A program made the position numbers. Positions 27,001-60,000 of a stretch of DNA of 64,000 nt are shown one piece after another; the stretch's first letter is position 1, and every line of letters starts with the position of its first letter. Source of the stretch: Candidatus Lustribacter sp. (lineage in GTDB: Bacteria; Vulcanimicrobiota; Vulcanimicrobiia; Vulcanimicrobiales; Vulcanimicrobiaceae); contig OZ255842.1 of assembly GCA_965277805.1 (NCBI GenBank), positions 3,552,001 through 3,616,000 of the forward strand. Reading direction: 5' to 3'.

Positions 27001-30000
27001 CGGGACTTCTTTGGTCGGCTGTAACTCGAGGAGCACGCGTGCTCCGCCTTGCAGGTCGAGACCGAGGTGGATCTTCTGCTGGATCGGGAGGATCGCCCAG
27101 ATGCACAGCCCTACCACGGCCAGGAGGAGGACCGCTTGAAGCGGCCTCTTGAGCTTATTCCACATACCGTTGTTTCGGGGAAGGGGAGAACCCCGGAATC
27201 GTAGCAGGTCCGGGAAAGAGCGTCAAACCACCAATGCCTTCGTTTGAAGGAGGGCCGTGCAGGATACCAAGGGCGTCGATGCAGGACTCCTGCAGTCGCG
27301 GTACCGGCTGACCAAGCAGCGCGCGGCAATTTTGCGTGCCCTGGAAGACGGGCGGCACCTCAGCGCCGAGGAGATCCTCGAGCGCGTACGGGCGCAATTG
27401 TCCGGCGTCAGTCTGGGAACGATCTACCGCACGCTCGATATTCTCCGCAGCATCGGACTCGTGCAGATCTTCTCCCACGCCGGCGCCGCCGCCAAATACG
27501 AAGCGGCGCTCGAGAAGCATCACCACCTGGTGTGCACGCAGTGCGGCGAGGTGATCAACGTGAGCGTCAACGAGGCGCTCGCGCTCTCACAAACGATCGC
27601 GCAAGAACACGGCTTCAACAACGTCGATTGCGCGCTGGTGGTGACCGGACGCTGCGCGCGCTGTTCCGACACTCCCCCCGGCGCGAACTAGATATGCAAC
27701 GACTCCCGAATCTCGACCCGGCCAAGCTGACGCCAGAACAAAAACGCGCCTACGACGAAGTCGCCGCCGCCCATACGGGCAACGTGCGCGGACCGTGGGC
27801 CATCGCATTGCGCGATCCCGAACTTCTGTATCACGCGCACAAACTCTACGACCGGTTGTGCGTTGGAACGAAACTCGGCGAACGATTGTTCGAGCTGATG
27901 GTGCTGACCGTCGCGCGCCACTGGACCTCGCAGTTCGAATGGGCGACGCACGAACGCAAGGCGCGCGAGGTCGGCGTTCCGCCCGCCGTGATCGAGGCGA
28001 TTCGCCACAACCGCGTGCCGCACTTCGAGCGTGAAGACGAACAGATCGTGTACGACACCGTGATCGAGCTCGAGCAAACGACCCAGCTGGGCACGCAATC
28101 CTACGAGCGGGCGCGCGCGTTCTTCGGCGAGGATCTGCTGGTCGAGCTGATCTCCGCCGCCGGTCTGTACACGATGATCGCGATGCTGCTCAACGCCTTC
28201 AATGCACCAATCCCCGCGACCGCGGAGCCGCTGCAGTGAACCCCGTACGGCGCGTTGTAACGGGCCACGCCGTGGACGGCGAAGCGAAAGTGCTCTTCGA
28301 TAACGCGATCACCGAAGTGAAGCGCGGCAAGTCGGGCTTGCTCACGCATCTCTGGAACACCAAAGCGACGCCGGCGGACATTGCGATCGGCGAAACCATC
28401 GACGATCCGGGCAAAGAGCCGCACATCACGGCACCGCCGGCCGGCGGTTCGCGCTTCGTCATCATCGACTACCCGCCGGGCAACAGCGGCACGATGCACC
28501 GTACCGAAACGATCGACTACATCGTGGTGCTCGCCGGCGAGATCGATATGGACATGGACGACTCGAGCGTGCACTTGAAAGCCGGCGACGTGATGGTGCA
28601 GCGCGGCACGAACCACGCTTGGTTCAACCGCGGTATCGAAAACGCGCGCGTCGCCTTCGTCCTGATCGACGCCGAACCGCTCGGCATCGGACACCCCCGC
28701 CTCCACGAATAACCACCCTGGTCGGTGCATCCGGATCGACGAGCAGCGGGTCTTAGATAAGCTATGCCTGCGCTTTCATTCCTCGACCTGGTCCGTATCC
28801 GTAAGGATGATGCATCCCCGCGCGAAGCGCTAAATCGTGCGGCTGACCTCGCCAAGTACGCGGAGCAGCTCGGGTTCGAGCGCTATTGGGTGGCCGAGCA
28901 CCACAATATGCGCGGGATCGGCAGTGCCGCGACCTCGATCGTGATCGCGCACATCGCGGAAGCCACGTCGACGATCCGCATCGGCTCGGGCGGGATCATG
29001 CTGCCCAATCACTCGCCGCTGGTGATCGCCGAACAATTCGGTACGCTGGCCGCCCTCTACGGCGATCGCATCGACCTGGGCCTCGGCCGCGCGCCCGGAA
29101 CCGACGGCTACGCATCGCGCGCGCTGCGCCGCGGTGGCGAAGCGGCGGAGCGCTTCCCGCAAGACGTTTTGGAACTGCAGCAACTGCTCGACGATCCGAT
29201 ACCGAACCAGGCGGTCATTGCGACACCCGGCGCCGGCACGCACGTGCCGATCTGGATCCTCGGATCGAGCCTCTTCGGTGCGCGGCTCGCAGCCGAACTC
29301 GGCCTGCCGTTCGGTTTCGCATCGCACTTCGCGCCGCAGGGCCTCGACGCCGCGCTCAACGTCTACCGCAGCAACTTCAAACCGTCGGAACAACTCGCCG
29401 CGCCGTACGCGCTGATCGGCGTCATCGCCGTCGCCGCCGACACGGACGCCGAAGCGAAGCGCCTCGCGACGACCGCGCAGATGGCATCGACCAACATTCT
29501 GCGTGACGCGCGCAACTTGAGTCTGCCGCCGATCGACGACATCGACGACTACTGGACGCCGCAAGAGAAGCCGCACGTGCTCGAGCGCATGACGTGCAGC
29601 GCAATCGGCAGCCCCGAGACCGTACGCGATCGCCTCGCAGCGATCGCGGAACGTACGCAGGCCGACGAGTTCATGATCGTCTCCGACATCTACGATCACG
29701 ATGCCCGCAAACATTCCCTCGAACTAACCCTCGCCGCGACGAAAGGCTTGATCGCCGCGAAGGTGTAGCCTATGCGAGGACCGCGGCCGGCTCGAGTTCG
29801 ACGCCGGGCGGGATTTCGCTGAAGGCGTAGACTTCGACGCGTGGGCCCACGCGGTCGAAGAACTCCGCAAGCAGCGGGCGCAGCGACGCGGTGACGACCA
29901 CGGCATGCGGCGCGAACGATGGATCGGCGAGAAACTGCTCGACGCCTTCGCGGACGCGACGGGCGGTGTGCGGGTCGGGGGCAAGGCCGGTTTCGCAGTT

Positions 30001-57000: not shown

Positions 57001-60000
57001 TTGAGCTCGTTCACGCGCGCCTTCACCGCGCCGAGCAGCGCTTCGGTAAACAGCGCCTGCCGCGCCACCGCGCCCATCGACCGCTCATTCGCAGCCCGGC
57101 TCGCCGCAGTAAGTGCATCCCGCGCCCCGGCAGCCGCCGCCGCAGTGGCGTCCCCAATATCAAGACTCATGCCGCAACTCTAGCCCCGCACCATGAACGA
57201 ATTGTTGCGCAACCATGAGCGCGGATTGTGGCGGTCGAGGGACCGCCACGAATCTTTGGGGAAGCGCGGGTGATTGAAGAAATCTTTCTCACTGGGAGAT
57301 TCAACTTGAAACGTTTGCTTACCGGCGTCTTGATGCTCGCGCTTATGAACGTTCCGGCGTTCGCGCAGCAGTCGTCGCCGCCCATCATTCCGTTCGACTC
57401 GGTGCCGAATCCGATTCAGCTCCCCTACGGGATGTATCTCGGCGAAGCGGCCGCGGTGGCCGTGAATTCCAAGGGTCACATCTTCGTGTTCTCGCGTGGA
57501 AATTCAACCGGCCCGGCCTATGCGGCCACCGCCGCGCAGTTGCTCGAATTCGATCAGAACGGTAAGTATCTGCGCGAGATCGGCCACAATCTCTACGCAT
57601 GGTCGTTCGCGCACGGCGTGGCGATCGACCCCGACGACAACATCTGGGCTGCCGACAAGGGCTCGGATATGGTGGTCAAGTTTACACCGAACGGCCGCGT
57701 CGCGATGGTGCTCGGCCGCAAACAAGAAGCGTCCGACGAAGGCACGGGCCCGCTCAAGCACCCGAAGCCGCCGCTACCGCCGGTGAACGGCCTCTTCCGC
57801 CAAGTCACCGACATCGCGTTCGACAAGGCACGCAACGGCTACATCAGCGACGGCTACATCAACTCGCGCGTCGTCAAGATCGCCAAAGACGGTCGCTGGC
57901 TGACGACATGGGGCACGCCCGGGACCGGACCGGGGCAATTCAATACGCCGCACAGCATCGCGGTGGATGCTGCCGGACTCGTGTATGTCGCCGACCGCGG
58001 CAATCGCCGCATCCAAGTCTTCGACGGCAACGGCACGTTCATTCGGCAGATCACAATCGATTTGCCGGTGCCGCCCAACACGCAAATGGTACTCGGTGAT
58101 TATCCCAAAGCCGACGATCCGGACGGCGACAACTTGCCGGCGCTGCTCAAGCCGGGCGCGCCGTGGGTCGTCTGCATCACGCCGCCCCCGCATCAGTTTC
58201 TCTACACCGCCGACGCCTATCCGGGCCGCGTCTACAAACTCACCCTCGACGGGAAGCTCGTCGGAATGCTCGGCACGGCCGGCAAAGCGCCCAAACAGTT
58301 CGGCTGGATCCACGGCATGGCGTGCCCCTCGGAAAACACGATCTACGTCGCCGAAATCCTCAACTGGCGCATCCAAAAACTCATCCTGCACCCAAGATAG
58401 CCCGATATGTCGGGGCGACGTCACGACATACAAAAAAAGCCCGCGTCTTGCGCGGGCTTTCCTTTTTCGGCGCCTCGAGAGATCAAGGCGTTCGCGTGAT
58501 TAGCGCTTCGAGAACTGGAAGCGTTTGCGGGCGCGTTTGCGGCCGTACTTCTTCGATTCTTTTTCGCGCGGGTCGCGCGTGAGGAGGCCGTTGCGGCGCA
58601 GCGGTTCGCGCAGCGCTTCGTCCATCTCGAGCAACGCACGAGCGATGCCGTGGCGCACGGCGCCGGCTTGTCCGGCCGGTCCGCCGCCGGCGCACTTCAC
58701 GTCGACGTTGAAGCGCGAGCCGGCTTCGGTGACAACGAGCGGCTGCCGCACGATTTGCTGCAGGACCGCGCGGGGGAAGTAATCGTCGATCGGCTTTTTG
58801 TTGACCGTGATGACGCCCTGACCGAGGGTCATCCGGACGCGCGCGACGGCGCGCTTACGACGGCCGGTTCCGAGAAAAAGTTCTGCTGGTTGCATGCCCT
58901 ACGCCAACGCCGCGGGCTTTTGGGCCGCGTGCGGATGAGAGTCGCCGACGTAGACGCTGAGACGTCCGAGCTGGACGTTGCGCATCCGGTTGGTCGCCAG
59001 CATGCCGCGAACGGCGCGCTCGATCAAACGTTCCGGGTACTTCGCACGAACCTGTGACGCCGTCTCGGTGTGGAGGCCGCCGGGAAAACCGGAGTGACGG
59101 TGATAGACCTTCTGGTTCCACTTGTCGCCGCCGAGCTCGATCTTGTCGGCGTTGATCACGACGACGAAGTCACCGGCATCGATGTGCGGGGTCCAGGTGG
59201 GCTTCTTGCGGCCCGAGAGCGTGCGAGCGATCTTCACCGCGAGCGTGCCGAGGCGTTGCCCCGCCGCGTCGACGATGTACCAATCGTGCGTGGCCTCTGC
59301 CGTGGTCTGTTGGTAGGTGCGCATGTCTTCTAATCTGTCAGCAAGAGAATAAGACCGCTCCGGCTCGGAACGGCAACCTAAGGAGTATACCGGGAGAGCC
59401 GGGGGATGTCCAGGCCTTGGGTGGCGGCCCCTCGACAAGCTCGGGGTGACAGCTGCTTAGCTTGCTTGCTCTGAGTCGAAGTTGGGATAGCGGACGCCGA
59501 CGAGGCAGAGGCCTTCGGGCGGGGCGGTATAGCCGGCGCGTTTGCGGTCGCCGGAGCCCAGGATCGCGGGGATGTCGTCCGGGGGGCGGCGGCCGGTGGC
59601 GATCTCTACCAGGGTGCCGGTGATCCGCCGGACCATGCGGTGGAGGAAGCCCTGCCCGGCGATCCGCAGGACGATCCGGTCGCGGCTGCGGTCGATGTCG
59701 ATCGAGTGGATCGTCCGGACCGTCCCGCCGCGCTCGGGCGCCAGGCCGCAGAACGCCACGAAGTCGTGGGTGCCGATCAGGCCGGCCGCGGCCACCCGGG
59801 CCAGTTCGACGTCGGCGGCGCGATGGACGTGATGGGCGAACCGGCGCTCGAAGGCCGAGGGCATCGGCCGGTTGATGATCCGGTACTCATACGTGCGCGC
59901 CTCCGCGTCGAAGCGCGCGGAGAAGCCGTCGGGCGCGAGGCCGGCGTAGCGCACGGTGACGTCGCGCGGGAGGTTGCCGTTCATCGCCAGCGCGAGCCGT

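What a model noticed while it worked through the whole genome (the two positions that open the first line are those of the whole stretch)
29770..57077. Second, motorless and filament-less flagellum-derived export machine kept across the class even where the flagellum is l [...]
Besides a normal flagellum the genome encodes a second, divergent flagellar-type T3SS: FlgB-like, FlgC, FliE, a FliF-FliG fusion lacking the torque domain, FliH, FliI, lytic transglycosylase, a FliK-position gene, a rod protein, FliM/N, FliP/Q/R, FlhB, FlhA (g03503-06, g03519-35), with an FlgF/FlgG pair at 3763826-3765129. It has no hook, filament, P/L rings or stator and is kept in relatives that have lost flagellin and motor, so it is a rod-only basal body maintained for another job, probably export.
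Evidence so far: Its FlhA (37% identical to the flagellar FlhA g00949, call 33) has an orthologue at 60-73% identity in 34 of 40 family genomes, while flagellin passes the Pfam cut-off in 18 of the same 40; 18 genomes have the system and no flagellin. Four single-contig genomes (G004, G006, G015, G024; 92-99% complete) have it yet lack flagellin, FliG_C, FlgI and MotB (0 of 4 each; calls 34, 42-44) and hold only 3 rod C-domains. Gene order is conserved beside secDF and rplM-rpsI. FlhA codon positions 1/2/3 are 71-79/78-85/47-56% identical to four relatives, with no stops (purifying selection, call 190). NCBIfam scores FlhA, FliP, FliQ, FliR, FliF, FliE, FlgC nearer flagellar than injectisome models. 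The same [...]
(Added by a program. Inside this text positions count along the whole contig: contig position 3,552,001 is position 1 of the stretch shown here. "Call 12" and the like, gene names such as g00115 and contig names such as C1 are that model's own, and its searches are not shown. The text may have been shortened before it was handed on; [...] marks where a part breaks off. The agent that wrote the report below was given it as the finding of a first reader that could run no searches.)

Follow-up and report, generated by a model that had tools for sequence, protein, structure and literature searches.

The report
Motorless flagellum-derived protein export machine
This soil-type bacterium and most of its relatives keep a second, motor-free copy of the flagellum's protein-export machinery that probably builds a thin, non-swimming protein tube from small unnamed subunits, a possible living halfway form between the flagellum and the bacterial injection needle.

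Summary
Confirmed, with corrections. The window holds a second flagellum-type export cluster (FlgB-C, FliE, FliF-G fusion, FliH-I, FliK-position, FlgE-position, FliM-N, FliP-Q-R, FlhB, FlhA), split by two unrelated inserts. Its FlhA orthologue is in 71 of 80 family genomes, flagellin in 44; 32 of 36 flagellin-less genomes keep it. It forms one clade with a syntenic cluster in the other classes of Vulcanimicrobiota (100/100), apart from the swimming flagellum. Stator, P ring and hook cap are missing where the flagellum is lost. 'Rod-only, no hook, no filament' is doubtful: the 'rod protein' is a D2-less hook (FlgE) derivative, FliK and the FlhB switch persist, a FlgF-FlgG-FlgJ-FliA satellite travels with it, and small helical proteins whose nearest named look-alikes are Hrp pilins lie beside FlhA in other classes and, as a pair with a lytic transglycosylase, in 76 of 80 family genomes. 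Best reading (0.5): a non-motile type III pilus/secretion conduit. FlhA groups with injectisome SctV at 79/91 only. No filament, substrate or expression is shown; this genome's copy has lost the FliH C-terminus and FliI N-terminus.

The parts
56985..57170 (-). FlgB-like proximal rod protein (61 aa)
   Evidence: no HMM hit; first gene of the cluster; FlgB-matching gene at this place in other classes
56656..56988 (-). FlgC (110 aa)
   Evidence: TIGR01395 E 1.4e-11, below cut-off
56381..56656 (-). FliE (91 aa)
   Evidence: TIGR00205 E 7.8e-4
54908..56377 (-). FliF-FliG fusion ending after FliG middle domain (489 aa)
   Evidence: PF01514, PF08345, PF14841; no PF01706
54637..54921 (-). FliH-like, truncated (94 aa; about 65 C-terminal residues lost against 160-196 aa in five aligned relatives)
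   Evidence: alignment; orthologues in G038 and G035 hit PF02108
53594..54640 (-). FliI export ATPase, Walker A and B present, about 70 N-terminal residues lost
   Evidence: deletion present in short-read contigs of one sample
53032..53610 (-). lytic transglycosylase (SLT)
   Evidence: PF01464 E 5e-30; same place in other classes
51519..53033 (-). aspartyl protease, frequent passenger (15 of 18 family loci), intact where the cluster has decayed
48951..49475 (-). FliK-position protein (174 aa), probable degenerate length ruler
   Evidence: orthologue in G120 hits PF02120 E 5.7e-5, other classes E 1e-11 to 1e-19; hhalign 2.6% but on the FliK C-domain; fold searches inconclusive
48232..48954 (-). 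FlgE-position protein (240 aa): hook-family protein without D2 domain
   Evidence: PF22692; position, FlgE-type loop, tree outside FlgF/FlgG, insert shared with other classes
47438..48235 (-). FliM-like C-ring protein
   Evidence: PF01052, TIGR01397 E 4e-5
47187..47444 (-). FliN
   Evidence: TIGR02480 above cut-off
46485..47168 (-). FliP
   Evidence: TIGR01103 237 bits, above cut-off
33517..33783 (-). FliQ
   Evidence: PF01313, TIGR01402
32804..33520 (-). FliR
   Evidence: PF01311, TIGR01400
31785..32807 (-). FlhB with NPTH autocleavage motif at residue 254
29770..31788 (-). FlhA (672 aa), FHIPEP motifs intact
   Evidence: TIGR01398 627 bits vs hrcV 468

Best explanation
An ancient, vertically inherited second type III export machine of Vulcanimicrobiota, derived from a flagellum, that no longer rotates. 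FliF ring, export gate (FliPQR, FlhA, FlhB), FliM/N/G ring and FliH/I ATPase export FliE, FlgB, FlgC, FlgF, FlgG (capped by a short FlgJ, wall opened by the transglycosylases) and a short D2-less hook protein; the FliK-type ruler then flips FlhB, and the machine exports small alpha-helical subunits (in this genome the 123 aa and 104 aa pair at genome 1685831-1686513) that polymerise into a thin non-motile pilus or needle like the Hrp pilus, used for contact with or protein delivery to other cells. SHOWN: gene inventory, conservation, absence of stator/P ring/hook cap/flagellin in many carriers, orthology across classes, existence, spread and predicted helical form of the small proteins. INFERRED from established type III assembly logic: export order, switch. 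INFERRED only: that the small proteins are substrates, that they polymerise, how the outer membrane is crossed, and the target.
For: System in 71 of 80 family genomes vs flagellin 44; pN/pS below 1 for all 10 gene pairs tested, 0.18-0.67. FlhA of this class and of four other-class clusters form one clade, 1000 of 1000 bootstraps, and join the phylum's swimming FlhA in 3 of 1000. MotB plug: none in 53 of 57 non-control genomes, 4 weak, 5 of 5 flagellated controls; FlgI none in 44 of 45 flagellin-less genomes; FlgD none in 4 of 4. Ruler and switch kept. In other classes a 75-90 aa helical family lies just downstream of FlhA, often in 2-3 tandem copies, up to 9 matches per genome, in 32 of 41 genomes, with near-consensus sigma70 promoters before 23 of 30 copies (shuffles mean 0.4; pattern chosen after seeing the sequences). 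Atlas features: that family scores 0.91 with a cluster 24% of whose members carry HrpA_pilin; this genome's 116 aa call finds, beyond its own phylum, only HrpA 0.81, HrpE-like 0.78, needle SctF 0.78, SseC 0.76 (under 0.9, leads). It is in 76 of 80 family genomes and 69 of the 71 with the FlhA, beside a transglycosylase; G009, whose cluster is a decayed remnant, lacks it. AlphaFold gives one long helix, residues 32-115, pLDDT 62. G038 (unpublished) has a second copy with main cluster, satellite and several such small genes in one 30 kb contig.
Against: No filament, secretion or expression was observed. The small-protein pair is unlinked to the cluster in this class. G037 (8 contigs, 98%) has no FlhA, FliP or FlgG of the system yet keeps the pair (one nearly invariant Leu is Pro there); G141 and G167 (unpublished) keep the pair and FlgG without FlhA/FliP matches. 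G087, G116 and G132 have the cluster but no match to the other-class family. Homology of the two small-protein families is weak: hhalign 26%, E 7e-4, 28 columns; 0 of 25 genomes of this class match the other profile. No Pfam HrpA, HrpE or needle hit for 22 members, no PDB sequence or fold match. Promoters are sigma70-like, not sigma28-like as a flagellin-style late gene would have. No L/P ring or in-cluster secretin explains passage through the outer membrane; without FlgD the hook-like protein may not polymerise. In this genome FliH and FliI have lost their mutual binding ends, so this copy may be weakened.
Confidence: 0.5

Rival explanations
1. Short rod/hook conduit without an external filament that exports the small proteins and others as soluble or membrane-inserting products; the glycine-zipper N-terminus of the 123 aa protein would make it a translocon- or pore-like protein rather than a pilin.
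For: Gly-zipper Pfam hits in 5-6 of 22 members, weak SctB2 and RTX N-terminal hits, all below cut-off; SseC among Atlas leads; no hook cap; only 3-4 rod C-domains per flagellin-less genome.
Against: The other-class family has no hydrophobic N-terminus, is highly conserved (53-62% across families) and multi-copy with strong promoters, as expected of a structural subunit, not of an effector; ruler and switch retained.
Confidence: 0.22
2. Envelope-internal device: with no L ring or secretin the axial structure stays in the periplasm or pushes out a membrane-sheathed tube (nanotube-like or cell-cell bridge), and the small proteins are unrelated or periplasmic.
For: No FlgI in 44 of 45; the five secretin neighbourhoods opened belong to T2SS/type IV or Tad operons (part of that output was cut); near-universal spread from 2 Mb to 9 Mb genomes suggests a general cell function; satellite lies by sepF-divIVA in G000, G003, G019 and G133; G037 keeps the small proteins without the machine.
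Against: Loss is tolerated (G009, G037); the divIVA linkage is absent in G082 and G094; small genes adjoin FlhA in other classes.
Confidence: 0.18
3. Decaying relic of a second flagellum, or spare parts for the swimming flagellum.
For: Long branches, many HMM scores below cut-off; FliH/FliI deletion here; remnant in G009; order f3 has the cluster split and reduced.
Against: Purifying selection; kept in 32 of 36 flagellin-less family genomes, 9 of 10 of the sister order and the flagellin-less families f5 and f12; the swimming flagellum is complete on its own.
Confidence: 0.05

Closest known systems
Bacterial flagellum, Firmicutes-type gene order (fla/che operon plus separate flgF-flgG-flgJ; order recalled)
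   Same: FlgB, FlgC, FliE, FliF, FliG, FliH, FliI, FliM/N, FliPQR, FlhAB in flagellar order, FliA-type sigma; most parts score nearer flagellar models
   Different: No flagellin, FlgK/L, FlgD, stator, P ring in carriers without the swimming flagellum; hook protein without D2; FliG cut and fused to FliF in this class
Buchnera hook-basal body (PMC3459982, passages)
   Same: Flagellar basal body without filament or motility, proposed secretion role
   Different: A reduced sole flagellum of an endosymbiont; here a second system in free-living cells, phylum-wide, coexisting with a full flagellum, with its own candidate subunits
Injectisome (non-flagellar T3SS), especially Hrp pilus systems
   Same: No motor; export core; candidate small helical filament subunits resembling HrpA/HrpE by language-model features; FlhA sister to the SctV group at 79/91
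   Different: Keeps FlgB, FlgC, FliE, the flagellum-specific markers of PMC3459982; no secretin SctC in the locus; FlhA scores as FlhA, not SctV; no SctD, gatekeeper or effectors identified
Myxococcales T3SS / needleless T3SS* (PMC3459982 passages; PMC12075869 listing and start of abstract)
   Same: Secretin-less, motorless type III core; the M. xanthus one acts in contact killing with a Tad pilus
   Different: Myxo systems lack FlgBCDEK and FliEG (PMC3459982); this one keeps FlgB, FlgC, FliE, FliG, rod and a hook-family protein. No Myxo SctV was knowingly in my trees

Membership tests
Motility flagellum | Type III core plus FlgB, FlgC, FliE | tested here: met
   FlgB only by position here, HMM-level in other classes
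Motility flagellum | Flagellin filament | tested here: not met
   32 of 71 carriers have no PF00669 match; 0 of 10 in f3, 0 of 17 in f5
Motility flagellum | Stator (MotB plug) | tested here: not met
   53 of 57 non-control genomes no match, 4 weak; 6 of the 57 were not tested for flagellin. MotA not searched
Motility flagellum | FliG torque domain | tested here: not met
   absent in window and 3 of 3 class genomes; present in 2 of 2 other-class genomes
Motility flagellum | Hook with cap FlgD | tested here: inconclusive
   D2-less FlgE-position protein present; FlgD 0 of 4
Motility flagellum | Length ruler FliK | tested here: inconclusive
   met in other classes; weak for the window protein
Injectisome (NF-T3SS) | Absence of FlgB, FlgC, FliE | tested here: not met
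Injectisome (NF-T3SS) | Secretin SctC in the system | tested here: not met
   none in the loci read; secretins sit in other operons; borrowing not excluded
Injectisome (NF-T3SS) | SctV inside the SctV clade | tested here: not met
   SctV 100/100 without it; FlhA model scores higher; sister position 786 of 1000 with three unnamed FlhA in between
Injectisome (NF-T3SS) | Needle or Hrp pilin subunit | tested here: inconclusive
   Atlas leads; no Pfam, PDB sequence or fold match
Injectisome (NF-T3SS) | Translocation of effectors into other cells | not testable with these tools
   needs experiment
Myxococcales T3SS | Lack of FlgBCDEK and FliEG | tested here: not met
   definition from PMC3459982 passages; genes present

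The most novel reading that the evidence does not exclude
The system is a surviving intermediate on the flagellum-to-injectisome path: a flagellar basal body that lost the motor and replaced flagellin by an Hrp-like pilin before losing FlgB/FlgC/FliE and gaining a secretin, and its lineage is sister to all injectisomes (FlhA tree 79/91, 786 of 1000 bootstraps; the constrained tree scored 21.6 log units above the first free search, p-AU 0.90; one gene, 34 rows, long branches).
Probability: 0.2. Interest if true: 0.95.

Novelty: new variant of a known kind. Interest (0 to 1): 0.82.

Why it matters
Type III systems are treated as either flagella or injectisomes, and standard annotation folds this cluster into 'flagellum, no decision' (PMC9259500 supplement). 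A motorless system kept across a whole phylum, from soil to gut to ocean lineages, with its own candidate filament subunit, would be a third class or an independent re-run of the flagellum-to-secretion exaptation. It makes the open question of where the needle came from testable in a phylum that has a cultured member, and it warns that flagellar gene counts overstate motility in these genomes.

Tried and rejected
Other-class small-protein profiles found nothing in this genome; the candidate was found by a composition scan of my own gene calls, rank 5 of those 55-260 aa, so its choice was guided by the hypothesis. hhalign with the 4-sequence profile gave 0.3-1.3%. Complex prediction of the other-class small protein with its conserved 90 aa upstream neighbour as chaperone: no answer, score 0.00. 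Fold searches for the FliK-position model listed no FliK/YscP, best Z 7.6 on generic alpha/beta folds; for the helical subunit nothing. No RNA holder listed. sigma28 regulon: pattern matched 2 of 30 upstream regions. The 99 aa gene after the sigma factor as FlgM: no HMM hit, alignment not FlgM-like to my eye; dropped. Aspartyl protease as a component: rejected (intact in G009). FlhA trees disagree: FastTree on 176 rows and the quick mixture tree on 67 rows put this class near high-GC FlhAs (one cluster has a Microbacterium member) and the other classes with SctV; after dropping 33 rows, among them the long P0139 and P0193 and three named SctV, both quick and careful trees join the classes. The AU test against the phylum's own flagellar FlhA did not finish. 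Earlier-findings look-ups returned nothing.
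Full report
Observation. Six-frame reading and HMM scans confirm, on the minus strand from 57170 to 29770: FlgB-like, FlgC, FliE, a FliF-FliG fusion that stops after the FliG middle domain, FliH-like, FliI, a lytic transglycosylase, an aspartyl protease, four unrelated genes (small protein, CRP, thioredoxin, cNMP protein), a 174 aa gene, a 240 aa rod/hook-family gene, FliM, FliN, FliP, a 12.7 kb unrelated insert, FliQ, FliR, FlhB (NPTH intact) and FlhA. 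NCBIfam scores FlhA, FliP, FliQ, FliR nearer flagellar models, FliF as a tie, FlhB and FliI slightly nearer injectisome models. The genome also has a complete swimming flagellum at 0.934-0.958 Mb and 1.847-1.859 Mb, identified by tblastn, two Pfam searches and reading of ORFs; the two FlhA are 37% identical. The phylum is Vulcanimicrobiota (labels).

Distribution. In 80 family genomes an FlhA orthologue at 55-90% occurs in 71, short fragments in 5, only the flagellar type in 1, nothing in 3 (tallied); flagellin occurs in 44; 32 of the 36 without flagellin keep the system. These counts include G015, G017 and G038, which are unpublished. In 18 family loci the order is the same wherever my caller found the gene, secD follows in 14, and the CRP block is not inside the cluster in any. 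In a phylum sample of 150, 9 of 10 genomes of the sister order and 57 of 57 of the other classes have an FlhA-type match, while flagellin is in 0 of 10 and 19 of 57; I read the locus for only 8 of those 57, and all 8 show the same order with FliJ, a transglycosylase and a true FliK. MotB plug, FlgI and FlgD are not found in most carriers without flagellin (53 of 57, 44 of 45, 4 of 4; controls rang). FliG_C is missing in 3 of 3 genomes of this class but present in 2 of 2 others. pN/pS against genus relatives is 0.18-0.67 for 10 gene pairs.

Orthology. The best non-class BLAST hits of three FlhAs of this class are the other-class cluster FlhAs (about 520 bits against 420-480 for the next unrelated). 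With 34 rows and LG+C20 the two groups form one clade, 100/100, apart from the phylum's swimming FlhA. Two larger, faster trees separated them; composition bias was flagged for this class. The rod-family tree and a shared insert in the 240-270 aa protein agree with orthology.

Not rod-only. FlgF and FlgG are supplied by a satellite, FlgF-FlgG-short FlgJ-FliA-type sigma (here genome 3.760-3.765 Mb), found in the same order in G003, G019, G133, G082, G094; its FlgG matches in 35 of 37 genomes. The in-cluster 240 aa protein is therefore neither FlgF nor FlgG: it follows FliK, has the FlgE-type loop, lacks D2 and branches outside FlgE/F/G at 99/96. I read it as a reduced hook protein. A ruler and an intact FlhB switch imply a second substrate class (established type III logic).

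Candidate second class. In the other classes a conserved 90 aa gene and a 75-90 aa helical gene follow FlhA, often in tandem, with longer paralogues that share the C-terminal hairpin; 32 of 41 genomes match; 23 of 30 copies have a sigma70-type promoter. Its 120 best homologues carry no Pfam domain and, where named, mostly Vulcanimicrobiota labels. In this genome a composition scan found a transglycosylase followed by two small paralogues at 1685207-1686513 (true start 21 bases upstream, 123 aa), present in 76 of 80 family genomes, in 5 of 5 further genomes and in 180 stretches of the GTDB collection, the 80 shown being mostly labelled as this phylum. Atlas feature searches with either family return Hrp pilins, needle protein or SseC as the only named neighbours. 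Against: the link between the two families is weak, G037 keeps the pair without the machine, three cluster-bearing genomes lack the other family, and no sequence or fold match to a solved pilin was found.

This genome's copy. A deletion removes about 65 C-terminal residues of FliH and 70 N-terminal residues of FliI relative to G031, G019, G003, G005. Contigs of 3 of 4 runs of one sample span it without a difference (possibly the source sample). These are the ends by which the two proteins bind (recalled), so export may run here without a tethered ATPase, or be weakened.

Relation to injectisomes. In the careful tree the system is sister to SctV plus three unnamed FlhA at 79/91, 786 of 1000 bootstraps; the constrained test gave p-AU 0.90 and a better tree than the first free search. 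This is one gene with five SctV and long branches: a lead. By the markers of PMC3459982 (passages read) it is not an injectisome and not a Myxococcales system, since it keeps FlgB, FlgC, FliE and FliG; that paper also notes flagella-like loci in non-flagellated species and Buchnera basal bodies.

Literature. Searches (open-access library only) found no description of this system. PMC9259500 (abstract, passages, part 4 of 10 of supplement 1, parts 64 and 260 and search rows of supplement 6; file 2 unreadable) lists a scaffold_78 cluster of the same order, split by TXSSCAN into 'Flagellum_putative' and 'T3SS_putative', no decision, and does not discuss it in what I read. PMC9758169 (passages) reports a diderm cultured member with no flagellin gene, no flagella and pili ascribed to type IV; its Table S8 was not read. 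PMC12075869 and PMC6026121 were seen as listings only. Subscription papers on the phylum were not searchable.

Verdict. Real, conserved and apparently undescribed; a new variant of flagellum-derived type III system, most likely building a non-motile pilus (0.5). Interest 0.82.

Noticed in passing
G000 genome 1685207-1686513 (L046:7207-8513): Transglycosylase plus two small helical paralogues, divergent from yceD-rpmF; candidate filament subunits of the system.
   Followed up: yes
G000 genome 3759905-3765129 (L004:1905-7129): Satellite: 99 aa unknown, FliA-type sigma, short FlgJ, FlgF, FlgG, next to divIVA-sepF-yggS.
   Followed up: partly
L036:14987-17083 (G132), L038:3140-5257 (G116): Stand-alone full-length FlhA paralogues of the system's clade; large genomes of other classes show up to 8 FlhA-type matches, and some have a second FliQ or FliN.
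   Followed up: partly
L025-L026 (G038, unpublished), L027 (G035): Second copies of the system with several small Gln/Ser/Ala-rich genes of other sequence beside them; may be transferred or mis-binned.
   Followed up: partly
L034 (G081:C52): A third flagellum-like cluster with FlgD, FlgE with D2, FlgI and a 146 aa FliG, in a genome with no flagellin or MotB match (110 contigs); its FlhA groups with the swimming type.
   Followed up: no
L222 (G009:C20): Decayed remnant of the cluster between rpsI and secD: fragments of FliI, FliK-position, FliN, FliP with stops.
   Followed up: yes
L029-L032, L130 (order f3): Cluster split in two: FlgB-FliI-SLT after rpsI, and FlgE-position to FlhA before secD.
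   Followed up: partly
G000 genome 5122467-5123204 (L005:5467-6204): Orphan 245 aa rod/hook-family gene that groups with swimming-type FlgE but lacks D2 length; genome also has two further flagellin-domain genes at 2.866 and 4.952 Mb and a second motAB-like pair near 3.199 Mb.
   Followed up: no
window 39158-45942: Insert with outer-membrane barrel (YaiO), GT2 glycosyltransferase, bactofilin-like and polysaccharide deacetylase genes, lower GC (0.60-0.61): likely an exopolysaccharide unit.
   Followed up: no
L006-L023: A conserved 290-300 aa gene (metF-like N-terminus, label recalled) sits between FliP and FliQ in most family loci and is absent at that place in the window.
   Followed up: no
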